Source: Candidatus Daviesbacteria bacterium GW2011_GWA1_41_61
GTDB lineage: Bacteria; Patescibacteriota; Microgenomatia; Daviesbacterales; UBA10151
Length of the DNA: 64,000 bases
Direction of reading: 5' to 3'
Assembly (NCBI GenBank): GCA_000997385.1
Contig: LCBT01000003.1
Coordinates: 192,892 to 256,891, forward strand
Shown here: piece after piece, positions 32,592 through 58,130 of the stretch
How positions within the stretch are numbered: position 1 is the stretch's first letter
Layout: the number at the start of each line of letters is the position of its first letter
Program-made: the position numbers and the translations under genes
The notes under the pieces: model-generated
What the model saw: the letters and a program-made list of their open reading frames with translations, nothing else
Database searches by the model: none
Told to the model about the DNA's origin: nothing

Positions 32592-32678
32592 GGGCGGGTG
32601 GCGAAACTGGCAGACGCGCTACGTTCAGGTCGTAGTTCCAGCAATGGAATGCAGGTTCAACTCCTGTCCCGCCCACCA
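32592..32678 (+). tRNA. tRNA-Leu (anticodon CAG), CCA encoded
   Basis: Acceptor GGGCGGG/CCCGCCC, anticodon loop TTCAGGT, long variable arm. Confidence 0.85.
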
Positions 32679-32679
32679 A

Positions 32680-32766
32680 GCCGGGGTGGCGAAACTGGTA
32701 CACGCGATAGATTGAGGTTCTATTGCCGCAAGGCTTGCAGGTTCAACTCCTGTCCCCGGCACCATG
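32680..32766 (+). tRNA. tRNA-Leu (anticodon GAG), CCA encoded
   Basis: Acceptor GCCGGGG/CCCCGGC, anticodon loop TTGAGGT. The 3' half is identical to tRNA-Leu(TAG). Confidence 0.85.
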
Positions 32767-32774
32767 GTATAATG

Positions 32775-32850
32775 GACTCGTAGCTCAGTTGGTTAGAGCG
32801 TCTCATTTACACTGAGAAGGTCGAGGGTTCAAGTCCTTCCGAGTCCACCA
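32775..32850 (+). tRNA. tRNA-Val (anticodon TAC), CCA encoded
   Basis: Acceptor GGACTCG/CGAGTCC, anticodon stem TCTCA/TGAGA, loop TTTACAC. Confidence 0.85.
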
Positions 32851-32853
32851 TCT

Positions 32854-32926
32854 GCCTCAGTTGCCAACGTGGTCAAGGCGGCGGTCTGAAGAACCGTTTA
32901 TGTGGGTCCGATTCCTACCTGAGGCA
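32854..32926 (+). tRNA. tRNA-like gene, predicted anticodon GAA (Phe), with a non-canonical D-arm and T-loop
   Basis: Acceptor GCCTCAG/CTGAGGC (7 bp), anticodon stem GCGGT/ACCGT with loop CTGAAGA. Only a 3-bp D-stem. T-loop TCCGATT lacks the TTC. Confidence 0.45.
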
Positions 32927-32936
32927 CAAAGTAGGT

Positions 32937-46210: not shown

Positions 46211-46954
46211 ATGAGAGATTCATTAATCCGCTGGGCTTCAATTTTTGGTCTGTTTTTTGTCTTTCTTTTTCTCTATACCAGGTTAGCCGGGCCGGTTCCT
46301 TTTAATATCACCAGCGTTACCACTACTAAATCTGACACCTTTAATGTTACAGGAGAAGGAACTGCTGTCATTAAACCTGATATTGCGGTAGTTAGTGTGG
46401 GTATCCGGTCTAACGGCTCTACAGTTAAAGAGGCCCAGGATCAAATTAATAGTGTTATAAATAGGGTTTCGGAAGCTATTAAAAAATTGGGAGTTGATCC
46501 CAAAGATATTAAAACTACCAATTATAATATCAGTCCTGAGTATGATTTTAGAGGTGGTACTCAAAGGATTAGCGGTTATAGTGCCAGTACTAATTTACAG
46601 ATTAAGGTTAGGGATATTGATAAGGTTAACTCGGTTATTGATGAGGCCACTGTTAGTGGGGCAAATCAGGTGGGAGGGGTTACTTTTGATGTTGATGATA
46701 AAACCAAGGCAGAAGGTGAGGCTAGGGAACAAGCTGTAGCCGAGGCTAAAAGATCGGCGGAGCAAGCAGCTAAAATTGCCGGGTTTTCTTTAGGCAGATT
46801 AGTTAACTATACTGAAAATTTTGAGGGAGGCCCTATTCCCGTACCGCTTCGGATGGATGTTGCGATAGGGGCTCCGGCAGAGAAAGCTACCCAAATTGAA
46901 CCGGGCTCCTCAGAGATTAAAGTGATAGTTACCTTAAGCTACGAAATCAGGTAG
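46211..46954 (+). CDS. SIMPL/DUF541-domain protein
   Basis: Architecture and motifs (FNVTGEGTAVIKPDIAVVSVGI...GANQVGGVTFDVDD...SEIKVIVTLSYEI) match the SIMPL family. Confidence 0.7.
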   Translation: MRDSLIRWASIFGLFFVFLFLYTRLAGPVPFNITSVTTTKSDTFNVTGEGTAVIKPDIAVVSVGIRSNGSTVKEAQDQINSVINRVSEAIKKLGVDPKDIKTTNYNISPEYDFRGGTQRISGYSASTNLQIKVRDIDKVNSVIDEATVSGANQVGGVTFDVDDKTKAEGEAREQAVAEAKRSAEQAAKIAGFSLGRLVNYTENFEGGPIPVPLRMDVAIGAPAEKATQIEPGSSEIKVIVTLSYEIR

Positions 46955-47495
46955 GTTGGGCAAAAACTAGTAGTCTTTTTAAAGCTGTGCCTAGGGGGGT
47001 GCAGGTTTGAAGGATTAGCTGATCACCTTGATCTTCTTTTAAATATTGAACTTCATCTGGCCAAACCTCTTTTTTATCCACCACCTGATATTTATACTCC
47101 CGGCCCTCTTTATAGAGAAAGATATTATCACCAAGTTGGAGTTCTCCCAGCCTTAAAAAGGCGGTGTTGTATCTGGTCATCCTCCAGGGGACATCAGAAG
47201 AGTGGGCAAACAAAAAGATAGTTCTTCCTTCTCCCGGTAAAGCACTCCCACGAGCTTGAGCTACTCCCTGCTCCAAGGCCTTTCGATAGACAGCTTGACT
47301 GAAAGGATCAACATCTAAAATTATTGGGGCTTGAGCATTGATTTTGGGGATGTTGATGTAAAAGGAATTACTTACAGCCAAACTAACTGCTGGTGAGGAA
47401 GAATGAGGCAGATAGAGCCTTAAAAAGGGATAATAAGTGAAACCTAGAAGCAGTAGTGACAAGATAATCAATAAATTTCCTAAATTTTTCCTCAT
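46947..47495 (-). CDS. Sortase-family transpeptidase
   Basis: N-terminal TM anchor. FAHS His and LILQTCTP (TLxTC catalytic Cys motif). Arg in ALKRLLVF. Confidence 0.75.
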   Translation of the reverse strand: MRKNLGNLLIILSLLLLGFTYYPFLRLYLPHSSSPAVSLAVSNSFYINIPKINAQAPIILDVDPFSQAVYRKALEQGVAQARGSALPGEGRTIFLFAHSSDVPWRMTRYNTAFLRLGELQLGDNIFLYKEGREYKYQVVDKKEVWPDEVQYLKEDQGDQLILQTCTPLGTALKRLLVFAQPT

Positions 47496-47543
47496 AGAAA
47501 TATTTTAATCATCAAAAATCCCCTATTAAGGGGGTTTTAGTTA

Positions 47544-48698
47544 CTAAGGTTTAATTTTTCGAATCGATGGATCGCGTCCTGGATGAAAACGCAAGTACAG
47601 TCCTAGTAAGAACATTAAAGCACTGATGATGGTCAAGCCTAAGATGGTATAATCTCCGCTGATAGGTAAGACCTCCCCTTCCTCAGCGGCAGCTGCCAGG
47701 ACTTCACCGGCCGGTTGTTGTGGAGCGCTGACTGCAGCTTGTTGAGCAGCTGGTTGAGATGGCGGTTGAGCAGGAGGTTGGGCAGGCTGCTCTTTTTCCT
47801 CCTTTTCCTCATGAGGAGTAATAATGGCCTCTTCTTCCGGACCAATTCTGACTAACTTAATGTTCATCGGACCATTTTCTATGATTGCCTCAAAATCAAT
47901 ATCCCCTGTCTTAATTGATACATCTCCCGAGTTTCCTTCAGCCTCATTATTTCCGGTGTCAGCATCGATATCGACTTCGTCTTCAACATCGGCTCTGTTA
48001 TCTAAAACTACACTAATGTCATTATCTTCATTAACTTTGATGGAGTTGTCAGAGTCTGAGCCATTATCAGCAACCTTTATTGAGATTTCCTTACAGCAAG
48101 ACTCGATATCAACTGAATCAATATTGATATTTTTACTTCTAATCTCTACCCGGCCTTCAATATCCCCGCTGTCAATGGAAACATCTCCGCTGTTTCTATT
48201 GGCGCTGTTACCGCCGGTATTGGCATTAACATCTATGTCATTATTAATTTCTGCCCGTTGATCTATCGAAACATTGGTTTGATTAGAACTGTTTATTTCA
48301 ATATTGTTGTCCGAATCTGAACCGTTGCCGGAAATAGTAGCTTCAGTGGGATTACTGCTGCAACAGGCAATATCAACTGTGGAAACGTTAGCTTGGTTAC
48401 TAACTTCAGTAGTAGTGTTGATATCTCCCGTTTGTATTGAGGCGTCACCCGAGTTGTCAGAGGCACTGTTATTACCACTGTCAGCTGCTTGCTGGACGTT
48501 ACTTCTGATATCAGCATTATTGGATTGTTCAACTGTGGTGTTGGTATCCGAACTTATGGAGATCTGATTGTCAGAGTCTGAGCCGTTACCGGTGATTATT
48601 AGCTCTTCTGCCTGAACATAGGGAGAAAATCCTACCATGATGATTAAAGTTAAAGTAATAGTTAATATCAGTCGGCTGTAACATTTTCCGGTTATCAT
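47544..48698 (-). CDS. Secreted tandem-repeat surface protein (3 x ~88-aa repeats) with a C-terminal LPISG, hydrophobic, basic sorting-signal-like tail
   Basis: Signal peptide. Repeats ITGNGSDSDNxI...ADTGNN...GDVSIxTGDI, each with a CC pair. PAQPPAQPP linker. Tail VLPISGDYTILGLTIISALMFLLGLYLRFHPGRDPSIRKIKP. Confidence 0.65.
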   Translation of the reverse strand: MITGKCYSRLILTITLTLIIMVGFSPYVQAEELIITGNGSDSDNQISISSDTNTTVEQSNNADIRSNVQQAADSGNNSASDNSGDASIQTGDINTTTEVSNQANVSTVDIACCSSNPTEATISGNGSDSDNNIEINSSNQTNVSIDQRAEINNDIDVNANTGGNSANRNSGDVSIDSGDIEGRVEIRSKNINIDSVDIESCCKEISIKVADNGSDSDNSIKVNEDNDISVVLDNRADVEDEVDIDADTGNNEAEGNSGDVSIKTGDIDFEAIIENGPMNIKLVRIGPEEEAIITPHEEKEEKEQPAQPPAQPPSQPAAQQAAVSAPQQPAGEVLAAAAEEGEVLPISGDYTILGLTIISALMFLLGLYLRFHPGRDPSIRKIKP

Positions 48699-48776
48699 TT
48701 CTTCTTTTACCTATATATTTTATGAAGCTCAGGTATTAAAAAGATTAAGGTAATGTAAGAAAAGTGTCACAATTGT

Positions 48777-51041
48777 TTATCTTACTCTGCCATAATCTCT
48801 AAGCTTTTTAGTTGCCAGTGTCAGTATTAACAGAAGTGGAGCCAAAGGTAGAAGCCAAGCTAAATTAAAGGTAATTGTTTTGGCTTCGTTTTGTGTCCCT
48901 TTAGTCAGTGTTACCGCTTGTCCACCGGAAGTTTCTTCAAAGCTTTCCCCGGCTACTTCGGCAGCATCTTCTGAATCATTATTTGAATATATCAATCCTC
49001 CGGTGTGAAGGATTTTTTTAATTGGTTCAGCTACGGCTGAGGCAACTGAGGTATTGGTATTATTAGCTGGAGCTGATTGATTATTTTGGCTGTTGGAATT
49101 ACTGAGAGCAGTTTGGTTAGATTGCTGATTTCCTTGCTCAACTGGATTATTGCCAGCCTGAGTTGTGTTTTCAGTTTGGACCTCTTTTTGATATCCGGGT
49201 CCGACGAAATCCCCAATCCATTTGCCGAAGACATTGATAGTGACGACTGTCAGCCTGCCACCCCCCACAATATTGTTATTGACGAAGTTAACTAAATTGG
49301 CCACGATATTGGCATCACCGGTGGTAATAGATGAATTTCCGCCGGTATTTTTAGAAGCGCTGTTACCGCCGGTATTGGCAAAAAGATTAATGTTATTTAA
49401 AATTTTGGCTACATTATTTTGGACGGTGGTATTACTTGCAGTTTGATCTATGGAGGCTGTATTTTGGGAATCTGAACCGTTCCCTTGATTGGTAGCGGTA
49501 ATATCACCGCTACTGTTTATAGTAAACTGGGTTCCTTTTGACCCGGCATAATTGGTGCCATAAGAGGAGCCAATGATTTTACCGACCCATTCCCCCGCCT
49601 CATTGACCAAAACTAACCACCAGTCTCCACCGGTTATATTGGAGTTGGCGATATTTAAAGTTTGGCTGTCAACATTGGCATCACCGGTTTGGATTTGAGA
49701 GCTGCCTCCGGTATTTTTATTGGTCTCGTTGTCTCCGGTGGCGGCTTGGAGGTTTAAGTTGTTTTCAATTTGAGCAATATTAGTTTGGAAAGTTTGATTA
49801 GTTGAGTCCTGATCTAAAGTTGCCGTGTTTTGGGAGCCAGATCCGTTATCTGTATTAGAAACTGTGGTAGTGGAGGTAGTTCCTAATACAGGTAAGATAA
49901 TATCTCCTATTAAATCTCCGAAGATATTGACAATACCCAAGACCACTTGGCCGGCGATATTGTTATTAATAAAGTTTAAAACATTGGCGGCAGCATTAGC
50001 ATCGCCGGTAGTAATGGTTGAATCTCCGCCGGTATTTTTATCGGCATCATTATCGCCGCTGTTAGAGGATAAAGTCAGGTTATTTTCTAAAGTAGCATCG
50101 TTATTTTGAAAAGTTTGACTGTCGCTAGTTTGTTCCACCTGAGCGGAGTTAGTTGAATCTGTGCCGTTATCAGTATTGGCGACCAAGGTGTCTGAAAAAG
50201 CAGAACACCCTAAAACACAGCCGGCAGCTAAATTTAATATCAGATCACCATTTTGATCATCTACTACGTTAAATTCAGAGACAGCCACCCCGGCTAAATT
50301 GGTATTTAGGGCGGTAATAAGGTTAACTGTAGTATTGGCATCACCGGTGTCGATACTTGAGCTGCCGACATTTTCCGAAGTGGAATTTTTACCGGTGTTG
50401 GTATCAAGGTCTAAGCTATTTTGTGCATCAGCGAGGTTATTTGAAACGGTGGTAATACCGGAATCACTATTTAAGGAAGCAGAGTTATCAGATCTTGAGC
50501 CGTTATCAGTATTTTCTACAGTTACACTGCTGTCACCCGGTAAGGTTGCCGCAGAATAGTTTTCATTAGCAGATGTAGTTACTGTAGCTGTGTTTAAGGC
50601 ATTTCCGGTGGTAATTTGAGGGTCCCCTACCTCCCCGTCTTTGGACTCCCCTCCGGTAGTTTGAGAGACTTCATTGTCTATCGGTGGTGTTGTATTTGAT
50701 GAGTTGGAAGTATCTTCAGTTAAGCTTTCAGTTGGGGTATCAGAGGGGGTGGAAGGCGGGACAAGTGTTTCTTCTGGCAGTGATTCTGTAGAAGTGGGGG
50801 ATATTTCTTTTAAAGTAGAGTTTTCAGTTGGAGCAGGCGATGGTTCAAGCAGGGATTCTAAAGTAGGCGCTTCTGGCGGTGTTGGTTCAGCCGGAGGAGG
50901 TGGTGGTGCGGACTGCTCTGCCCTGGGTGTTGGTTCAGCCGGAGATGTAGGCGCTTCCAAGGCTGTGACTGTAGCTACTTGACTAAAAAGTAAAGTAATA
51001 ACTGTTATTACTGATAAAGTTTTTTTAAGTTTTTTGATCAT
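48777..51041 (-). CDS. Large secreted tandem-repeat protein (754 aa) of the same repeat family, Pro/Thr-rich N-terminal stalk, C-terminal TM anchor
   Basis: Signal peptide. PT-rich region. At least 5 repeats NTDNGSxSxN...NTGGxS.I.TGDAN...N.NN.IxG. C-terminus LAWLLPLAPLLLILTLATKKLRDYGRVR. Confidence 0.65.
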   Translation of the reverse strand: MIKKLKKTLSVITVITLLFSQVATVTALEAPTSPAEPTPRAEQSAPPPPPAEPTPPEAPTLESLLEPSPAPTENSTLKEISPTSTESLPEETLVPPSTPSDTPTESLTEDTSNSSNTTPPIDNEVSQTTGGESKDGEVGDPQITTGNALNTATVTTSANENYSAATLPGDSSVTVENTDNGSRSDNSASLNSDSGITTVSNNLADAQNSLDLDTNTGKNSTSENVGSSSIDTGDANTTVNLITALNTNLAGVAVSEFNVVDDQNGDLILNLAAGCVLGCSAFSDTLVANTDNGTDSTNSAQVEQTSDSQTFQNNDATLENNLTLSSNSGDNDADKNTGGDSTITTGDANAAANVLNFINNNIAGQVVLGIVNIFGDLIGDIILPVLGTTSTTTVSNTDNGSGSQNTATLDQDSTNQTFQTNIAQIENNLNLQAATGDNETNKNTGGSSQIQTGDANVDSQTLNIANSNITGGDWWLVLVNEAGEWVGKIIGSSYGTNYAGSKGTQFTINSSGDITATNQGNGSDSQNTASIDQTASNTTVQNNVAKILNNINLFANTGGNSASKNTGGNSSITTGDANIVANLVNFVNNNIVGGGRLTVVTINVFGKWIGDFVGPGYQKEVQTENTTQAGNNPVEQGNQQSNQTALSNSNSQNNQSAPANNTNTSVASAVAEPIKKILHTGGLIYSNNDSEDAAEVAGESFEETSGGQAVTLTKGTQNEAKTITFNLAWLLPLAPLLLILTLATKKLRDYGRVR

Positions 51042-51122
51042 TTTTTATTCCTTTCTGTTTTGATTTGGTTTCAGGGTGCCTTACTGAAGTGCAGGTAAGG
51101 CTACCCTTTATACCAAATTTAC

Positions 51123-52403
51123 TTAAGCAGAAAGATGCAGTCCTTCAAGGAGTTGGCTAAGTAAGTCCTCGAGTTCGTCAAGGTCAAAATCAAAGTCAAA
51201 ATCTACATCCTCGCCAAAGAGATTAACGTTAGCACTGTTGCTAGCTTCAACCTTAGTCTCGGCATCACCGGTACTGGTTTCAACATCACCATCGGTGTTA
51301 TCGTTGGCTTTGTTATCACCAGTAAAAGCGTCTGCCCAAACCTCATTTTCCACCTCACAACCTCTGTGGTCTCCATGTTGGTTCCCATCTAAGAACAAGT
51401 CATGGTTTTCAGGTTTGTTGTCCTTTCCGCAGTTGCTTTGAAAGACCTCTAATTCGTTTTCTAACTCAGCTTCAATCTCATTGTCAGAACCCGAACCGTT
51501 ACCAGAAATTTCAGCTTCTACGTCGAATAAACAACAATCCACATCAGCGGCGTTAAAGTTAACGGCGTTGTCAACTTCAACCCGGGTTTGGGCGTCGCCG
51601 GTGTCAATGGAAACATCACCATCGGTATTATCGTTGGCGTCATTGTTACCGGTGTTTGAATCTGCCCAGATACCGTTTTTGATATCTGCTTTATTTTCCT
51701 GAACCACCAAGACCGATCGGTCAAGATCAAGGTCAATAGTGTTATCGGAGTCTGAACCGTTTCCCGAGATCTCCAGATCTACCCCGTTTTCATCACCGTT
51801 GCCGCCGATATTGGCAATATTGGCGTTAGCGCGGTTTTGAACATCCACGGTGGTCGAAGCATCTCCAGTATCAATGGAAACATCACCATCGGTATTATCG
51901 TTGGCGTCATTGTTACCGGTGTTTGAATCTGCGCTAACCCAGTTTCTGATATCAGCGTTGTTTGATTGAAAAACTTTAGTTTCGTTTTCGGACTCAAGCT
52001 CCACATTGTTATCGGAGTCTGAACCGTTACCTGAGATCTCCACATTAGTGTCACCATTACAGGTTCCACAATTTTCCAAGTCAGCTACGTTTAAGTTAGC
52101 TTGATTTTGGACTTCTACTCTAGTGGTGGCATCTCCGGTATCTACTTGCACATCCCCGCCGGTGTTATCATTGGCATCGTTATTGCCGGTATCTGCACTT
52201 GCGTTAATTCGGTTAGTGATTTCAGCATTATTTTCCTGAACAACAGTTGTGTTGTTATTTGTAGTAACATCAACAGTACTATCAGAATCCGAGCCGTTAC
52301 CGGTAATCTCTAGGGTTGTAGTAGCCAAAGCTGGTGTGGCCAGAGCGTAAAGGAGAAGTGATGCGGTAGCAATCGCTGTAGCTATCTTTTGTCTTATCAT
52401 TTT
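51123..52403 (-). CDS. Secreted tandem-repeat protein (start MIRQK with a strong RBS), same GNGSDSDN/ADTGNN/TGDA repeat family, acidic C-terminus
   Basis: Signal peptide ATASLLLYALATPALA. Four or more repeats ISGNGSDSDNxVE...ADSNTGNNDANDNTDGDVSIDTGDA. Cys pairs. C-terminus DFDFDFDLDELEDLL without a TM. Confidence 0.65.
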   Translation of the reverse strand, partial: KMIRQKIATAIATASLLLYALATPALATTTLEITGNGSDSDSTVDVTTNNNTTVVQENNAEITNRINASADTGNNDANDNTGGDVQVDTGDATTRVEVQNQANLNVADLENCGTCNGDTNVEISGNGSDSDNNVELESENETKVFQSNNADIRNWVSADSNTGNNDANDNTDGDVSIDTGDASTTVDVQNRANANIANIGGNGDENGVDLEISGNGSDSDNTIDLDLDRSVLVVQENKADIKNGIWADSNTGNNDANDNTDGDVSIDTGDAQTRVEVDNAVNFNAADVDCCLFDVEAEISGNGSGSDNEIEAELENELEVFQSNCGKDNKPENHDLFLDGNQHGDHRGCEVENEVWADAFTGDNKANDNTDGDVETSTGDAETKVEASNSANVNLFGEDVDFDFDFDLDELEDLLSQLLEGLHLSA

Positions 52404-52692
52404 CTCACCCCCTTTCTTTCCTGAAAAAATCCGCTTATGGCGGAGCACTTCATTGACCATATCTTAAAAATTTCCTTTTAAAAAAGAATTAAGATCTGGT
52501 AAGAGTTTAGTAATAAGGTAACCTATAGAGGCTAATGGAAAGTTTAACTGTTTAAAGGAATAGACTAAGAACTAAGGAATAATAAGTAATATTATGGGGA
52601 ATGTGGTTTACGTTATAGCAAAACAATGAGGCCTATATATGTAACGCTTGATTTAATAGTTGTTTGGATTAGCGGTGGGGATTTAGACTCTA

Positions 52693-53289
52693 TCAGAACT
52701 GAAGATCAAAAGTTGTTTTTTCTCCGTTGATCTCCCCCACTTGGACCTGAAAATTTTTTTGCCCCTCATTTACCGGAAAACCAAGTCTGGTATATTTAGT
52801 AGAGATAGGCTGAGCTTCTACCGGATCGTTATGAATATCCGGGGCCAGCCACTCCTGTCCCCCATTGGCTGAGATTCGCAGGAAATCCCGGGTGTTGACC
52901 TGAATTTTTTGTTGGCCTTCGTTTATCAACCTCAAGTTAAATATCAAAAAGATCCGTCCTGCTACAGCCGTGGCTTTCTGTCCTTTAACCACTATTTCCT
53001 TCCTCACTTCAGCTCCTTCAATATTATATTTTAGAGTTCCTACTTGTTTACCCTGGCTGTCATTTATCGGAAAGCTGAATTCTTTATTTAAAGATGTTTT
53101 GGCGGTTGGTTCAGCTATTTGCAGGGATTTATTAGGGATGGGAGCAGTTAAAGAAAAATTATCCTGAGAATTTTTTAATAGGCCGGGTCGAGTACCCAGA
53201 AAGATCAAACTTCCTGCTGCTAAAATGCCTAACCCGATAAAAAGGTATTTTTTAGATAACCTGATAGAGGGAATTCTAGCTGTTAACAT
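52693..53289 (-). CDS. Membrane-anchored hypothetical protein (DUF4352-like beta-sandwich)
   Basis: N-terminal TM helix, then a ~150-aa beta-rich domain. Confidence 0.5.
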   Translation of the reverse strand: MLTARIPSIRLSKKYLFIGLGILAAGSLIFLGTRPGLLKNSQDNFSLTAPIPNKSLQIAEPTAKTSLNKEFSFPINDSQGKQVGTLKYNIEGAEVRKEIVVKGQKATAVAGRIFLIFNLRLINEGQQKIQVNTRDFLRISANGGQEWLAPDIHNDPVEAQPISTKYTRLGFPVNEGQKNFQVQVGEINGEKTTFDLQF

Positions 53290-53707
53290 TTAATTTAATT
53301 TTTACCTCCTGCTCACGGTTATTTTTAATAATTTCTACCTCTACTTTTTGTTGACCGCGGGAGCCAACCAGTTTATTTAAAACATCACCATTAGTTTTGG
53401 TTTGGACAAAAGAGGTAGTATTCATCCCCAAAGCTTTAATTTTTTCTTTATACCAATCAGTAATAACTTGGGGATCATCAAAGCTTATAAAAGCTTGTTG
53501 GTTTTGGTCATTAATAATATTTCGGGAATTAGGATACTTCAGACCAGAGATATTACTATCTGAACCCCCTTGATTGTTAGGAGTAACTGTCGGTGAGACA
53601 GGGCTTGGGCTAAGTTCTTTTCTGAAACCGGCAGTTTGGTTTAAATAGGCTGCGGAGATCACGATCAAGGTAAATAAAATTAAGACAATTAAGATTTGCG
53701 GGCTCAT
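53276..53707 (-). CDS. Membrane-anchored hypothetical protein (143 aa)
   Basis: N-terminal TM helix. Overlaps the downstream ORF by 14 nt. Confidence 0.45.
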   Translation of the reverse strand: MSPQILIVLILFTLIVISAAYLNQTAGFRKELSPSPVSPTVTPNNQGGSDSNISGLKYPNSRNIINDQNQQAFISFDDPQVITDWYKEKIKALGMNTTSFVQTKTNGDVLNKLVGSRGQQKVEVEIIKNNREQEVKIKLNVNS

Positions 53708-53781: not shown

Positions 53782-55083
53782 CTAACTGCAGCTTTGAGTC
53801 GGGTTGTATTTAGAGCCGTAAGTACCTACAGAGTTGCCGCCATCATTTGTAGACATATTATTATCACAAACTTTACCCTGAGGTGTTCTTTGGAATTTTA
53901 TACCCCCTGATTTATTATTCTTGATAATATTTTGGTAAATATTATTGTTAATACCTTGAGTCTCTTTATCTCCACCTAGTCTAATTCCTGCGCCGCTATT
54001 TCCGTAAATTTCATTATTTTTAAAAGTATTTCCCTCTCCCCGGGAATCCATCCCCCCGGAATTACTGTCTTTTTGACCGGTACACTTATTGTTCTCCATC
54101 ATGTTTGCTGAGGCAGCTTCTTTAATGTCAACACACTCATTTCCTTGAGTGTCAATAGTATTGTCATGGATAAAGTTGCCGTTTGATTGATCCGGATCAG
54201 AAGTAGGGTTTTTTCCGTCACCCAGCTGTTCCGGAGCAGTGCCAATATAGATCCCTTCCCCATTTTTACCACCGCCATTGAATTTAAAATCATAAACTCC
54301 ACAATTTGTGATAGTATTGCCGGCAATTTCATTATTTTGAGCAAAATATCTTAGTCTGATACACTCTCCCCCAGCATTTTTAAGAGTCATTCCCAAAACC
54401 TTCAGCCCTGTAACTCCGGATTTAGTTTCTTTGCCTTGTACATAAAGTAACTTGTCACGGTATCCGGAAGATGAAGATGAGGATCCAAAAAGACCATCAA
54501 TAGTAAAACCCCTAAGTGTTATAGAATCATGGTTTATTTCAAAAATCCGGCCTTTCCCCCCGCCTTTGATAACTGCTTCTTTAGGCCCGGAAATAATAAT
54601 TGGTTTATCAGAAGTTCCATTTCTTTTGGTGATTATATCCTGAGAATATGTCCCCGGGGCTAGGGCAATTGTCTCTCCTCCCTGGGCTAAGTCGACTGCC
54701 TTCTGAATTGTCTTAAAGGGTTTATCTGCGGATAGTCCATTATTTTCATCGCTTCCGGAAGGATTAATATAATAACTTTTTAAAGCGGTTGGTGCAGAAA
54801 CGGGCTGAGCAGCCGCTGAAAGCGTTGTGGTGGGTGTTGCTTGGACTATATTACTGCTGTTGATAATGACTGTGCTGGCGTTTACCACAACGGTCCCGGT
54901 AGTGGTAATATTTTGAGTAGCAGCCTCTTGGGCATCAGCTCCAGTTCTAAAGATAATTTGCTGTAGTAAGAGAGTAGAGATTACAGTAGATATTAGTATA
55001 AGACTATACTTAGCAGAACTAGCTGAAATCTTTTTAAGTCTACCAAGGAAAAAATATTTCATCCGGTGGGCAAGTTTTAACAT
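53782..55083 (-). CDS. Secreted right-handed parallel beta-helix (pectate-lyase-fold) protein
   Basis: N-terminal anchor or signal. SYYINPSGSDENNGLSADKPFKTIQKAVDLAQGGETIALAPGTY is the typical beta-helix enzyme N-cap. Many N/G-rich turns follow. Confidence 0.65.
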   Translation of the reverse strand: MLKLAHRMKYFFLGRLKKISASSAKYSLILISTVISTLLLQQIIFRTGADAQEAATQNITTTGTVVVNASTVIINSSNIVQATPTTTLSAAAQPVSAPTALKSYYINPSGSDENNGLSADKPFKTIQKAVDLAQGGETIALAPGTYSQDIITKRNGTSDKPIIISGPKEAVIKGGGKGRIFEINHDSITLRGFTIDGLFGSSSSSSGYRDKLLYVQGKETKSGVTGLKVLGMTLKNAGGECIRLRYFAQNNEIAGNTITNCGVYDFKFNGGGKNGEGIYIGTAPEQLGDGKNPTSDPDQSNGNFIHDNTIDTQGNECVDIKEAASANMMENNKCTGQKDSNSGGMDSRGEGNTFKNNEIYGNSGAGIRLGGDKETQGINNNIYQNIIKNNKSGGIKFQRTPQGKVCDNNMSTNDGGNSVGTYGSKYNPTQSCS

Positions 55084-55178
55084 TGGTTAGTGGAATTTGA
55101 CGCTTAATTTAATAAGCGGCTGAGATTGTAAGTTCAATTTAATAATTTGTCAAGTTTTTTGTAAGGACAAGATAGGGG

Positions 55179-58130
55179 TTAGTTGGGGTGGATGTCTTTA
55201 CCGTTTTGGGCAATAGTATTGGGACCTAAGTAGTTAATATTACCAGCTGAAGTTTTGGAATAGATTCCATAGGTGCTATTGTTGATAATTTGATTCATGG
55301 TAAATCTATTTTCTGAAGCGTTCTCTACCAAATATAGACCTATTTGGTTGTTGGTAATTAAATTACCGGTGACAAGATTTTCTTTAGTTTTGATATAGAC
55401 AGCTTGGTGATTGTTGCTAATTTTATTATTTAAAACAGTATTGTTATTAGAACCATCATAAATGTAAAAGCCATATTGTTTATTGTCTTCAATCTGATTC
55501 CCCTCAAATAAATTATCCATTGATGCCTTATTTATCCTAACCCCTCTTTGGTTTTTAGAAATAGTGTTGTTGCGGATAGTGTTATTGCTGGATTGATAGA
55601 CAACTATACCGTCAAGATTTCCACTAACGGTATTGTTTTCCACTAAATTATTATTAGAATTTTCATGAAGCATGATTCCATGGAGTTTATTATTATAGGA
55701 GAGGTTATTTCTAATGATGTTATTAAAACATCTTTTGGAAAAAATTAACCCATGGTTTCCGTTGTTATAAAATTTATTATTCTCCACGATAAAGTTATTG
55801 GAGTCATCGTGAGGGTCTAAACCATATTGAATGTTATCGAAAAATTCATTCCCCCTCCAAAGCATCGAAGTGGTTCCAAAAGTATAAGCTCCGAAATAAT
55901 TGTGGTGAAATTTACTGCTTAAAACTTCACCGGAGAGTAAATGTGTCCCCAATTTACCGTTACTCATCCGCCAGGCAACACCATAAACAGAGTCTTCAGT
56001 CGGTGCCGTTCTCCTATAGCCCAGATAAGCCAATTCCGAATCATAGATATCCATCCGGGAAAAATCCTTAACCAGGATATAGCTTCTGCCGTTTTTATAA
56101 TCCTTATCGAAATCATTATTATCCTCATCCCATGAGGTAATTTTGACACCCTTAATTAAAACCAGACCGTTATTAGATTTTAAATTTACAAAACCATTCT
56201 TATTACTGGCCAGTTTAAGCCAAGTCACTTCATCTTTATTTAAAGTTAACATTACTCCGTTTCTAACCCACAGGTTAGACCGCAAGATCCAATTTTGGGG
56301 GGATGTTTCTTCTAACTTTGTTTTTCCTACACTGGATTGGATATTCTTTAAAGTGACTTGTTTTCCTCTCCCCTGGACGATGATGGTGTTAGATGGTTGA
56401 TCAAAACTTATTTGCAAAATATCGGGGTTCTTTTTGGTATAGGAATAATTTGGCTGGAAATCAATAGAAAAATTCGACCTGGGGATATTTAAAATATAAC
56501 CGGGACTGATCTGATTCCAATTAGGCAAAATATTAATATTAGCCTTAAGAAGACTATCTGCGGTAATTCCATTAGCTTTGGCTATACGGGCCAAGGAATC
56601 CCCGGGCTTAACCGCATACCGGGTTACCAGCATCCGGTTAATGTTATCTAAAGATGAAGCTCCCGCTACCAATAATGTTTCATCAGTCTCAATATTAGTC
56701 AGGGTTACTAAGTTATTTGGTTGATTTGGTTGGATTGAAGATAAGACAGGTTGAAACTGTTGCCGGTACCAAAAAATTCCCCAAGCTAGGACTGCAAAAA
56801 CTAAAACAGTTGCTCCCCAGGCGGGAATTTTAGTTAAAAATTTAAATTGAGGAAGCCGGGAAGTATCCCATCTGGTTATCCAGCCCTGGGTATTTAAAGT
56901 AAACAGGGCATAAATTTTCATCCCGGCTGAGACAAAGCTAAGGAGAATGAAAGCAGGCAAGACAGTAATATCCTGAGGCCTTCTTTTAAGATGAGGATAT
57001 AATTTAATAGTTCTGCTTATAAACCACCAGACAAAAATAGCCAGTGCTAATGTCCAATGCTGTAGGGTTAAAGCAATCATAAAAAAGAGTGGGCTAAGCA
57101 GTATAGTAAATCCTTGAATAACCTTATCAACTTGAAAATAAGCCAAAGAGGGGTGGTGAAAAACCCAGCCATGATAGATTGCCCGAAGGTCTGCTCTTAA
57201 GGCATTCCTGGTCCAGCGGAGCCGTTGTTTTAAATAAGATTTTAAATCTTCAACACCCGGGGTAAAGACATGGGAAGTCATCTGATAGGCAACTTTCCAT
57301 CCAGAGGCCAGTACTAAATAAGTAAGTCTTTTATCATCTCCGCTGACTACTTTTTGCCCCCAAAAAGTTTCATTTACCAAATCTGGGATCATTGGAGTTA
57401 TCACATCCTTCCTATAAAAGGCAGTTCTCCCGGATAAACAGATTAGTGCATCACCGGCTGCTCCCAAAAATGGGAACTCATCAAAATAGCGGAGATCAAG
57501 TTGAATATCAAAGATTTTTTGGGCCAGTGTTTTAGGCTGCAAGACATTTTGTCTGGTAGCAACCCCGGCAATTTGGGGATTCTCAAAGGGAATCAAGCCA
57601 TTTTTTAAAGTATCCTCCGACCAGATAGTATCACTATCAACTAAAGCTACTACCTCTCCTATGGATGCTTTTATTCCATCAGCTAAGGCTTCCCTTTTCC
57701 CATATTTTTGAGTGATAATTAATCTAGCTTTGGAAAAAACTTTTTGAAAATCCTCAAAGATTTTAAGACATTTTATATCTGTATAATCAATAACTGCAAT
57801 AATTTCTTGGGGAGAATTTTTAGCCCAGGAAACTAGGGCATCAATAAAAACTTTGGGATTTTCATTATAGACCGGAGTAATTACAGAGACTGACGTTTTA
57901 AAATAACCTTTTTTAGGGTGATAAAATTGGGCCACTGTTTTTTTAAACAGCCATGTTCCCCATCTCCAAAGACCAATAATTCCCAGGGGTAAATAAAAAG
58001 TAACCCACTGCCAATAAGTGGTAAATACCCTGGTCAAAGATTCCGCTATCGGGCTGACAACTGGACTTATTGAGGGCAGTTCAAAGACAAATTTAATGTT
58101 GGATGGATCGGTCGGCCAGATAACGTCCAT
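55179..58130 (-). CDS. Fusion protein: processive family-2 glycosyltransferase (polysaccharide synthase, multi-TM) + LysM + C-terminal parallel beta-helix with AlgG/AlgE-type YG-x-DPHD motif (C5-epimerase/lyase-like)
   Basis: GT2: ISVITPVYNE, ALVDSDTIW (DxD), LKQRLRWTRN (QxxRW), 6-8 TM helices. LysM: YAVKPGDSLARIAKANGITADSLLKANINILP. Beta-helix: NIQYGLDPHDDSNN, then ~12 PbH1 repeats (NNxISNN...). Confidence 0.8.
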   Translation of the reverse strand: MDVIWPTDPSNIKFVFELPSISPVVSPIAESLTRVFTTYWQWVTFYLPLGIIGLWRWGTWLFKKTVAQFYHPKKGYFKTSVSVITPVYNENPKVFIDALVSWAKNSPQEIIAVIDYTDIKCLKIFEDFQKVFSKARLIITQKYGKREALADGIKASIGEVVALVDSDTIWSEDTLKNGLIPFENPQIAGVATRQNVLQPKTLAQKIFDIQLDLRYFDEFPFLGAAGDALICLSGRTAFYRKDVITPMIPDLVNETFWGQKVVSGDDKRLTYLVLASGWKVAYQMTSHVFTPGVEDLKSYLKQRLRWTRNALRADLRAIYHGWVFHHPSLAYFQVDKVIQGFTILLSPLFFMIALTLQHWTLALAIFVWWFISRTIKLYPHLKRRPQDITVLPAFILLSFVSAGMKIYALFTLNTQGWITRWDTSRLPQFKFLTKIPAWGATVLVFAVLAWGIFWYRQQFQPVLSSIQPNQPNNLVTLTNIETDETLLVAGASSLDNINRMLVTRYAVKPGDSLARIAKANGITADSLLKANINILPNWNQISPGYILNIPRSNFSIDFQPNYSYTKKNPDILQISFDQPSNTIIVQGRGKQVTLKNIQSSVGKTKLEETSPQNWILRSNLWVRNGVMLTLNKDEVTWLKLASNKNGFVNLKSNNGLVLIKGVKITSWDEDNNDFDKDYKNGRSYILVKDFSRMDIYDSELAYLGYRRTAPTEDSVYGVAWRMSNGKLGTHLLSGEVLSSKFHHNYFGAYTFGTTSMLWRGNEFFDNIQYGLDPHDDSNNFIVENNKFYNNGNHGLIFSKRCFNNIIRNNLSYNNKLHGIMLHENSNNNLVENNTVSGNLDGIVVYQSSNNTIRNNTISKNQRGVRINKASMDNLFEGNQIEDNKQYGFYIYDGSNNNTVLNNKISNNHQAVYIKTKENLVTGNLITNNQIGLYLVENASENRFTMNQIINNSTYGIYSKTSAGNINYLGPNTIAQNGKDIHPN

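What the first reader, a model, noticed from the sequence alone, without database searches (positions are those of the whole stretch)
46947..52460. Sortase with a cluster of three large secreted proteins built from one novel tandem-repeat family, one ending in an LPISG sorting-signal-like tail
A sortase (TLxTC motif LILQTCTP) lies immediately upstream of three signal-peptide proteins of 384, 754 and 427 aa. Each consists of 3-5 copies of a ~60-90-aa repeat with the invariant blocks (T/S)GNGSDSDN / NTDNGSxSxN ... (A/N)DTGNN or NTGGNS ... GD-x-S-I-x-TGDA(N), often with paired Cys. The first protein ends in ...VLPISGD, then 20 hydrophobic residues, then RFHPGRDPSIRKIKP. That is the architecture of a cell-wall sorting signal with an LPxSG variant pentapeptide. 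The second has a PT-rich stalk and a C-terminal TM anchor. The third has a poly-acidic DFDFDFD tail. I do not recognise this repeat as a described family. Candidate roles are a sortase-dependent adhesin, fibril or S-layer system.
Basis: partly seen in the sequence, partly recalled or inferred. Interest (0 to 1): 0.7.

Follow-up and report, generated by a model that had tools for sequence, protein, structure and literature searches.

The report
Sortase-anchored beta-solenoid surface protein operon
An uncultivated groundwater bacterium (Candidatus Daviesbacteria, Microgenomates/CPR) carries a conserved gene cluster for three related, very acidic repeat proteins that are exported and held at the cell surface in three different ways, one by the sortase encoded beside it. 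The repeat is in no domain database, so this is probably an undescribed surface structure of the whole bacterial group.

The parts
51123..52400 (-). Gene C. Secreted, anchorless paralogue of 425 aa from the ATG at 52400 (the longest ORF runs to 52460). Signal peptide MIRQKIATAIATASLLLYALATPALA, then four ~89-aa repeats (52316-52047, 52046-51780, 51779-51519, 51518-51189). The conserved tail FDFDFDLDELEDLLSQLLEGL (51218-51126) is predicted to be a strand followed by an amphipathic helix.
   Evidence: 35 invariant N/Q/G/F/C columns in 121 orthologues; AF2 pLDDT 83.4, pTM 0.73, all-beta; Shine-Dalgarno
48777..51041 (-). Gene B. Membrane-tethered paralogue of 754 aa. In order: signal peptide (51041-50961), Pro/Thr-rich disordered N-terminal region (50960-50652), half repeat (50711-50553), four long repeats of 107-122 aa each followed by a conserved hydrophobic insert (50528-49155), a disordered linker of about 90 aa (49154-48876), the nearly invariant NLAW motif (48866-48855), a C-terminal TM helix and a basic tail (48863-48780).
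   Evidence: AF2: repeat cores above 90 pLDDT, 22-130 and 630-722 disordered, helix 727-751; 100% identical to UU73_C0003G0274
47544..48698 (-). Gene A. Predicted sortase substrate of 384 aa. In order: signal peptide (48698-48609), three 87-aa repeats (48605-47823), and a P/Q/A/E-rich wall-spanning linker (47822-47670).
47547..47669 (-). Cell-wall sorting signal of A: LPISG (47669-47655), 20 hydrophobic residues, then RFHPGRDPSIRKIKP.
   Evidence: LPxTG at the same position in most orthologues; LPISG in 6 clusters; co-variation with sortase subtype; the only such tail in the window
46947..47495 (-). Sortase of 182 aa. N-terminal membrane anchor (47474-47412). Catalytic His in FAHSS (47210-47196), Cys in QTCTP (47009-46995) and Arg in KRLLV (46979-46965). 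It belongs to the subtype with the PWxxTRYNT insertion.
47520..47534 (-). Short G+C hairpin followed by a T-run between A and the sortase. Possibly an attenuator that keeps the enzyme below the level of its substrates.
   Evidence: pattern match only
52401..52692 (-). A+T-rich non-coding leader and probable promoter region of the C-B-A-sortase unit, including the strong Shine-Dalgarno of C.
   Evidence: No convincing sigma-70 match: promoter-like sites were no more frequent than in shuffles.
52693..53289 (-). Conserved upstream neighbour of 198 aa: an N-terminal TM helix plus a weakly DUF4352-like beta-sandwich, with invariant R138, H153, D155, P156, K165 and E186. It may be an assembly or anchoring factor; its role is unknown.
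   Evidence: (present on the same strand, directly upstream of C, in 79 of 82 related loci)
53276..53707 (-). Second conserved upstream neighbour of 143 aa: an N-terminal TM helix plus a small domain with the conserved ITDWY...NGxVLNKL motif. Role unknown.
   Evidence: (47 loci)

Best explanation
This is a lineage-specific cell-surface assembly module of Microgenomates (CPR) bacteria. Three paralogous, very acidic (pI about 4), Asn/Asp-rich proteins are built from one undescribed ~88-aa repeat. They are exported by Sec and fold outside the cell into stacked all-beta (beta-solenoid-like) bodies. They are retained in three different ways. The adjacent membrane-anchored sortase cleaves A within LPIS|G (a derived form of the family's LPATG) and links it covalently to peptidoglycan through a ~50-aa Pro/Gln-rich spacer. 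B stays in the membrane through a C-terminal helix behind a ~90-aa flexible linker and carries a Pro/Thr-rich distal end. C has no anchor, is the most conserved, and has the strongest ribosome-binding site. It is the bulk component and attaches non-covalently to the homologous beta bodies of A and B. The product is an acidic, probably Ca2+-stabilised, fibrous coat or adhesive appendage. Shown here: the genes, the repeats, the sortase, the sorting signal, the synteny and the co-variation. Inferred: cleavage, wall linkage, the C-on-A/B assembly, metal binding and the biological role.
Against: No experiment exists, because the organism is uncultivated. LPISG has Ser where sortases normally require Thr. 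The generic LPXTG-anchor NCBIfam model does not score the tail at all; the only related NCBIfam match is a sub-threshold one to the EF0750_LPXTG subfamily model (21.2 bits against a cutoff of 47). The sortase falls below the cutoff of every NCBIfam sortase class. About a fifth of loci show C-B without an adjacent A or sortase, so C and B do not strictly need A in cis. Nothing demonstrates contact between C and A or B. The C-terminal helix of C could be a cap that prevents stacking. Ca2+ binding is suggested only by Asp/Asn-rich coupled loops and by weak fold resemblance to RTX and MpAFP. I could not inspect model coordinates, so rung geometry is inferred from DSSP strings and covariation. In-register inter-repeat couplings are confounded by paralogue-type signal.
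Confidence: 0.6

Rival explanations
1. A monoderm functional-amyloid fibre system, working like curli, Fap or chaplins. C is a polymerising subunit whose repeats are cross-beta rungs, and subunits stack end to end into fibrils. The sortase-anchored A acts as the cell-bound nucleator, like CsgB or FapB, or like the sortase-anchored long chaplins. B is a second, membrane-bound nucleation or attachment site.
Against: No sequence relation to Curlin_rpt, Fap or chaplin models was found. C is extremely acidic, with 23% Asp+Glu on the outer face, which disfavours unlimited stacking without counter-ions. The conserved C-terminal helix and the disulfide-bounded insert in repeat 4 look like a cap. AlphaFold tends to stack any repeat. 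The fold matches are weak.
Confidence: 0.22
2. A paracrystalline surface layer. C is the lattice protein, held to the envelope by A (wall) and B (membrane), with Ca2+-dependent lattice contacts as in RsaA.
Against: There is no SLH, CWB2 or other S-layer anchoring domain. At 425 aa, C is small for a lattice protein. No lattice evidence exists, and the RsaA match is a generic beta-roll match.
Confidence: 0.12
3. Three independent monomeric beta-solenoid adhesins or binding proteins for a host cell, polysaccharide or mineral surface. They share an operon and a fold but do not assemble with each other. C is a released, soluble factor.
Against: The strict conservation of order and of all paralogue types across phylum-level lineages, together with the extreme conservation of C (35 invariant columns), fits interacting parts better than free-standing binders, which usually diversify.
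Confidence: 0.15
4. A sortase-polymerised pilus of the Gram-positive kind, in which the sortase joins subunits covalently.
For: The best sortase-class score is to class C, though it is far below threshold (66.5 bits against a cutoff of 160).
Against: Only A has a sorting signal. B and C cannot be donors. There are no Ig/CnaB-like pilin folds. The sortase lacks the C-terminal TM segment of class C enzymes and fails the class C cutoff.
Confidence: 0.03

Closest known systems
Streptomyces chaplins (long ChpA-C with sortase signals plus short secreted ChpD-H)
   Same: Paralogues of one beta-forming unit. Some are covalently wall-anchored by a sortase and others are secreted without an anchor and assemble on them at a monoderm surface. 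This is the closest match in how the system would work.
   Different: No sequence relation: no Pfam chaplin hit. Chaplin domains are about 40 aa and hydrophobic, whereas here the unit is about 88 aa and highly acidic. Chaplin genes are scattered, whereas these form one operon with the sortase. Amyloid formation is not shown here.
Curli (CsgA/CsgB) and Pseudomonas Fap (FapC/FapB) functional amyloids
   Different: No profile match. The repeats are 2-4 times longer. The organism is a monoderm with no CsgG- or FapF-type outer-membrane channel. Anchoring is by a sortase. The protein is much more acidic.
LPXTG-anchored beta-solenoid adhesins (for example L. reuteri SRRP binding region 5nxk, S. pneumoniae PfbA)
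   Different: These are pectate-lyase-like right-handed helices with rungs of about 20 aa. They are single proteins without anchorless or membrane-tethered paralogues. No sequence similarity.
RTX / MpAFP-type Ca2+-bound beta-rolls of giant adhesins and RsaA S-layer
   Different: No GGxGxD nonapeptide and no HemolysinCabind hit. A different repeat length. These are type I secreted in diderms, whereas here export is by Sec plus a sortase in a monoderm-like CPR cell.
Pam pili of CPR bacteria (Troman et al., bioRxiv 10.64898/2026.03.03.709456)
   Same: A CPR-specific surface appendage also reported in Microgenomatia.
   Different: Pam pilins have Ig-like folds assembled by donor-strand exchange with chaperone-usher-like factors. 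Here the proteins are beta-solenoid repeat proteins with a sortase. It is a different system.

Membership tests
Sortase (Pfam PF04203, cysteine transpeptidase) | Sortase domain above the curated threshold | tested here: met
   77.9 bits against 26.6, E=7e-22. TIGR01076 sortase_fam scores 64 bits against 39.35.
Sortase (Pfam PF04203, cysteine transpeptidase) | Catalytic His, the TLxTC Cys and the Arg | tested here: met
   H98 (FAHSS), C165 (LILQTCTP) and R174 (KRLLV) are each 100% conserved in 44 cluster-linked sortases.
Sortase classes A-F (NCBIfam class models) | Score above a class-specific cutoff | tested here: not met
   Class C scores 66.5 against 160, class D 52.6 against 165, and class E 26.2 against 160. 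It is a sortase of no curated class.
LPXTG-type cell-wall sorting signal substrates | LPXTG pentapeptide near the C-terminus | tested here: inconclusive
   The window has LPISG, with Ser in place of Thr. The aligned position is LPxTG in 73 of 92 and 27 of 48 orthologues. The generic LPXTG-anchor NCBIfam model gives no hit at E at or below 1. The only related match is EF0750_LPXTG, sub-threshold at 21.2 bits against 47.
LPXTG-type cell-wall sorting signal substrates | Hydrophobic stretch followed by a positively charged tail, plus an N-terminal signal peptide | tested here: met
   YTILGLTIISALMFLLGLYL followed by RFHPGRDPSIRKIKP. Signal peptide MITGKCYSRLILTITLTLIIMVGFSPYVQA.
LPXTG-type cell-wall sorting signal substrates | A cognate sortase, genetically linked and co-evolving | tested here: met
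   The sortase is the adjacent gene in 40 of 60 loci. Two sortase subtypes match two motif classes with no counter-example.
LPXTG-type cell-wall sorting signal substrates | Cleavage and transfer to peptidoglycan | not testable with these tools
   Requires biochemistry or proteomics.
Curli / Curlin_rpt (PF07012); Fap; chaplin (PF03777) | Sequence membership in the repeat family | tested here: not met
   No Pfam hit at E at or below 1-10 for the whole proteins or single repeats. A profile of 121 orthologues finds no PDB chain, including CsgA and FapC entries, at E at or below 10.
Curli / Fap-type cross-beta solenoid | Strand-turn-strand rungs stacked in register | tested here: inconclusive
Curli / Fap-type functional amyloid | Self-polymerisation into amyloid fibrils | not testable with these tools
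   Requires purified protein, or cryo-ET.
Sortase-assembled (class C) pili | All pilins carry sorting signals, have Ig/CnaB folds and a pilin-motif Lys | tested here: not met
   Only A has a sorting signal. The models are beta-solenoid-like.
RTX Ca2+-binding beta-roll (PF00353) | GGxGxD nonapeptide repeats or a HemolysinCabind hit | tested here: not met
S-layer proteins of monoderms | An SLH, CWB2 or other S-layer anchoring module | tested here: not met
   No such Pfam or NCBIfam domain in A, B or C.
Right-handed parallel beta-helix (Pfam Beta_helix / pectate-lyase-like) | A Beta_helix or NosD profile match with rungs of about 20 aa | tested here: not met
   No hit for A, B or C, although the same search detects Beta_helix in the neighbouring 433-aa and 983-aa proteins. 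No 22-aa sub-repeat by hhalign. DCA shows an antiparallel i+j ladder rather than an i-j of about 20.

The most novel reading that the evidence does not exclude
Microgenomates build a Gram-positive-style functional amyloid that evolved independently of curli, Fap and chaplins. Each ~88-residue repeat forms one very wide cross-beta rung. The anchorless protein C polymerises end to end on a sortase-anchored nucleator (A) and a membrane-tethered one (B). The resulting fibres or sheath are the main contact surface of these ultra-small, presumably host-dependent cells.
Probability: 0.2. Interest if true: 0.8.

Novelty: new variant of a known kind. Interest (0 to 1): 0.58.

Why it matters
Sortase was already known to be nearly universal in Microgenomates (PMC6744442). 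However, none of the papers my full-text searches returned names a substrate or a purpose for it. This cluster supplies a cognate, co-evolving substrate and two paralogous partners. It also defines a large repeat family (about 3,300 clusters at 50% identity) that is absent from domain databases, and a second, non-canonical sorting motif class (GLSxTSG) paired with its own sortase subtype. For a lineage that has never been cultivated, this gives concrete candidates for its principal surface structure and for its means of attaching to hosts or particles. The candidates can be tested by peptide cleavage assays, by expressing C, and by looking them up in metaproteomes and tomograms. If the amyloid reading holds, it would be an independent origin of functional amyloid with an unusual rung geometry.

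Tried and rejected
(1) Known-domain explanation: rejected. Pfam-A and NCBIfam scans of the whole proteins, of single repeats and of ten atypical family members gave nothing. Single-sequence and profile searches of PDB sequences also gave nothing. The antibody VH hits to B (E of 0.03 or above) are noise.

(2) A canonical parallel beta-helix with about 22 aa per rung, four rungs per repeat: rejected. hhalign of quarter and half repeats found no sub-periodicity. DCA shows an antiparallel-type i+j ladder instead.

(3) An antiparallel meander sheet between neighbouring repeats: not supported. The paired-repeat DCA shows no inter-repeat i+j ladder.

(4) The first DCA run was dominated by gap and indel artefacts, so I redid it on gap-free cores. 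The strongest remaining couplings, among the near-invariant N7, S11, Q27, T52, G53 and N76, probably reflect paralogue type or degenerate repeats rather than contacts.

(5) Pam pili of CPR: a different fold and assembly mechanism.

(6) A class C pilus sortase: fails the cutoff, and only one substrate has a signal.

(7) The afdb50 fold library was unavailable.

(8) Literature searches on sortase, LPXTG, S-layer, amyloid, surface protein and repeat combined with CPR, Patescibacteria, Microgenomates or Microgenomatia found nothing that describes this family.

(9) Window neighbours as part of the system: only the 198-aa and 143-aa upstream ORFs are conserved. The GT2-LysM protein, the beta-helix protein, SIMPL and the others are not.

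(10) A small 2-repeat 'D' paralogue is seen next to the sortase in 20 of 60 other loci, but it is absent from this window.


Full report
**What is there.** The region 46947-52460 holds four co-directional ORFs on the minus strand. In order of transcription they are C (52460/52400-51123), B (51041-48777), A (48698-47544) and a 182-aa sortase (47495-46947). The gaps between them are 81, 78 and 48 bp. B is 100% identical to UU73_C0003G0274 of Candidatus Daviesbacteria bacterium GW2011_GWA1_41_61. A is 100% identical to a protein of the same genome. That genome belongs to the Patescibacteria group, Microgenomates group. The true start of C is most likely the ATG at 52400. It is preceded by AAGGGGGTGA, and the orthologues begin there. 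This gives 425 aa.

The last gene is a sortase: Pfam 77.9 bits against 26.6. Its His98, Cys165 (LILQTCTP) and Arg174 are invariant in 44 cluster-linked orthologues. It is below the cutoff of every NCBIfam sortase class. The three larger proteins have Sec-type signal peptides and share one repeat of about 88 aa. A has 3 copies, B has 4 plus an N-terminal half copy, and C has 4. The core reads GNGSDSDN, then about 13 residues, then Q-x-N-x-A-x-I-x-N, then A-x-TG-x-N-x-A-x-NTGGD-x-x-I-x-TGDA, then N-x-N. Cys pairs lie at the repeat junctions.

A ends in LPISGD, 20 hydrophobic residues and RFHPGRDPSIRKIKP. This is the only such tail among window ORFs. B ends in a nearly invariant NLAW motif, a TM helix and a basic tail. 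C ends in FDFDFDLDELEDLLSQLLEGL, which is conserved as F-x-F-x-F-D-L-x-x-L-L. The mature proteins have a pI at or below 4.05, and C is 16% Asn and 15% Asp.

**Not a described family.** Pfam-A and NCBIfam give no hit for A, B, C, single repeats or ten atypical relatives. PDB sequences give none either, even with a 121-sequence profile at E up to 10. NCBI's name for A, 'Dentin sialophosphoprotein', is a composition artefact, and the deposited start removes the signal peptide.

**How widespread it is.** C, B and A each retrieve hundreds of proteins that are either hypothetical or carry no source name. The only exceptions are the 'Dentin sialophosphoprotein' name for A and one JGI 'LPXTG-motif' name. 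A profile of the 11 window repeats finds 3,301 proteins at E up to 1e-3, and 865 at E up to 1e-30, among 1.84 billion representatives. Some relatives have up to 10 repeats. In species-representative genomes, 194 loci were confirmed. All the informatively named ones are Microgenomates lineages: Davies-, Gottesman-, Levy-, Woese-, Chisholm-, Roizman-, Shapiro-, Ames- and Curtissbacteria.

**Synteny.** In L001 and L002 the called genes are 436/728/415/176 (sortase) aa and 432/723/399/176 aa. Sixty related loci have at least 5.5 kb downstream of C. Of these, 58 have B, 47 have an A-type protein, 40 have a sortase and 36 have all three in this order. Twenty also have a 2-repeat 'D' paralogue of about 200 aa on the opposite strand, which this window lacks.

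The conserved block also extends upstream of the finding. The 198-aa ORF at 52693-53289 has an N-terminal TM helix and a weakly DUF4352-like domain. It lies directly upstream of C on the same strand in 79 of 82 loci. The 143-aa ORF at 53276-53707 is conserved in 47 loci. The other window neighbours are not conserved with the cluster.

**The sorting signal is genuine.** At the position aligned with LPISG, orthologues carry LPATG, LPVTG, LPITG and similar motifs in 73 of 92 cases and 27 of 48 cases. LPISG occurs in 6 clusters, and LPIAG and LAAAG are rarer. A second class reads GL[SA]xT[SA][GS]. All are followed by a hydrophobic stretch and a basic tail, often YLRLRSGRSP. One orthologue is named 'LPXTG-motif cell wall-anchored protein' by JGI.

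The adjacent sortases fall into two subtypes. The one with FAHSS..PWxxTRYNT..LILQTCTPxGT, which is the window's type, is always next to LPxTG-like tails. The one with FAHAR..LTLYTCSGFxDS is always next to GLSxTSG-like tails. There is no counter-example among 44 pairs. This co-variation is the strongest evidence that the enzyme acts on A. Méheust et al. found this sortase family 'near ubiquitous in Microgenomates' (PMC6744442). None of the papers my searches returned names a substrate for it.

I could not see coordinates, so I ran mean-field DCA on 2,086 repeat instances (Meff of about 1,870). It gives a clean series with i+j of about 104: 48-56, 41-63, 39-65, 37-67, 35-71, 33-73, 31-74, 29-78, 27-76 and 25-78. 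The series involves only the small-hydrophobic and Asn/Gln face. The analysis also couples the GNGSDSDN loop (positions 4-12) to the NDANDNTGG tip (positions 46-56). Each repeat is therefore one long strand-turn-strand unit with two Asp/Asn-rich loops brought together. It is not four rungs of about 22 aa, and hhalign likewise finds no sub-repeat. Couplings between adjacent repeats are in register only. That agrees with parallel stacking but is confounded by paralogue-specific residues.

**Mechanism proposed.** After Sec export, the three paralogues fold into stacked beta bodies. Extracytoplasmic disulfide formation may be involved: MdbA/VKOR-like families are enriched in CPR according to PMC6744442. 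The sortase cleaves A at LPIS|G and attaches it to the wall. B remains membrane-tethered. The anchorless C has the strongest Shine-Dalgarno, with strength falling C > B > A > sortase, and a hairpin with a T-run lies before the sortase gene. C associates with the homologous bodies of A and B. The clustered acidic loops suggest Ca2+ stabilisation. I rate the sortase-substrate relation at about 0.9, the stacked beta-solenoid architecture at about 0.75, and the full assembly model at about 0.6.

The main rivals are listed with their tests. They are a curli/Fap/chaplin-like polymerising amyloid with A as anchored nucleator (0.22), an S-layer (0.12), three independent adhesins (0.15) and a sortase-polymerised pilus (0.03).

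**Comparison and novelty.** In mechanism the closest system is the Streptomyces chaplin arrangement of sortase-anchored long forms plus secreted short forms. In fold class it is closest to curli and Fap. Protein A taken alone resembles LPXTG beta-solenoid adhesins such as SRRP. Sequence membership was tested against each of these families through their Pfam or PDB representatives, and none gave a match. [quoted passage not shown] The finding is therefore a new variant of a known kind: a sortase-dependent surface system. It is built from an undescribed repeat family, has an unusual three-anchoring-mode paralogue design, and is conserved across a major uncultivated lineage.

Noticed in passing
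window 52693-53289 (-) and 53276-53707 (-): Two small N-terminally membrane-anchored proteins lie just upstream of C and are conserved with the cluster: the 198-aa one in 79 of 82 loci and the 143-aa one in 47 loci. The 198-aa family is weakly DUF4352-like and has an invariant H-x-D-P plus R, K and E residues. These may be assembly factors. They lie outside the finding's coordinates.
   Followed up: partly
window 48855-48866 (B residues 726-729) and the same position in related loci: The C-terminus of B has a nearly invariant [IV]-N-L-A-W motif directly before the TM helix and basic tail. This three-part layout resembles a sorting signal of unknown type. It is conserved regardless of sortase subtype or sortase presence.
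   Followed up: partly
related loci, e.g. L013 11666-12274 (-), L027 13098-13697 (-), L064 5285-5944 (-): A fourth paralogue ('D') of about 200 aa has 2 repeats, the second of which is Lys-rich. It is secreted and sits convergently after the sortase in 20 of 60 loci. It is absent from this window.
   Followed up: partly
related loci L014, L016, L021, L025-L028, L036, L040, L044, L047, L065, L067, L070, L071: A second, non-canonical sorting motif class, G-L-[SA]-x-T-[SA]-[GS], is always paired with a distinct sortase subtype (FAHAR..LYTCSGF, lacking the PWxxTRYNT insertion). This looks like a natural specificity switch worth testing.
   Followed up: partly
window 49155-50528 (B repeats): Each B repeat is followed by a conserved hydrophobic insert absent from A and C, with nearly invariant Trp, Phe and Gly (examples: VNIFGDLIGDIILP, WWLVLVNEAGEWVGKIIG, VVTINVFGKWIGDFVGPG). 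It is modelled as extra short strands.
   Followed up: no
window 47544-48698 (public annotation P0260): The deposited record names A 'Dentin sialophosphoprotein' and starts it 20 codons too late, which removes the signal peptide. This is a composition-driven misannotation.
   Followed up: yes
window 53782-58130 (-): Next to the cluster are a 433-aa right-handed beta-helix protein (Beta_helix/DUF1565) and a 983-aa GT2 glycosyltransferase fused to LysM and NosD-like beta-helix repeats. Further along are a UDP-glucose dehydrogenase and a BNR protein. Together these form an envelope-polysaccharide neighbourhood that is not conserved with the cluster elsewhere.
   Followed up: partly
window 46947-46954: The sortase gene and the convergent SIMPL/DUF541 gene (46211-46954, +) overlap by 8 bp at their 3' ends. 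The same SIMPL neighbour is found only in the closest relative, L003.
   Followed up: no
window 32592-32927 (+): A tight cluster of four tRNA genes (Leu-CAG, Leu-GAG, Val-TAC, Phe-GAA). The window holds nine tRNAs in total.
   Followed up: no
loci L004, L006, L008, L009, L051 and others (record titles): Many MAG records that carry this Microgenomates-type cluster are titled 'uncultured Gammaproteobacteria bacterium', and one 'Candidatus Nanoarchaeia archaeon'. These are probably placeholder or wrong taxonomic labels.
   Followed up: no
repeat model positions 7, 11, 27, 52, 53, 76: The strongest DCA couplings link near-invariant residues (N7-G53, S11-T52, Q27-G53, Q27-N76). These would be far apart in a simple extended arch. 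They could be real loop contacts, or an artefact of degenerate repeats and paralogue types. This is unresolved.
   Followed up: partly
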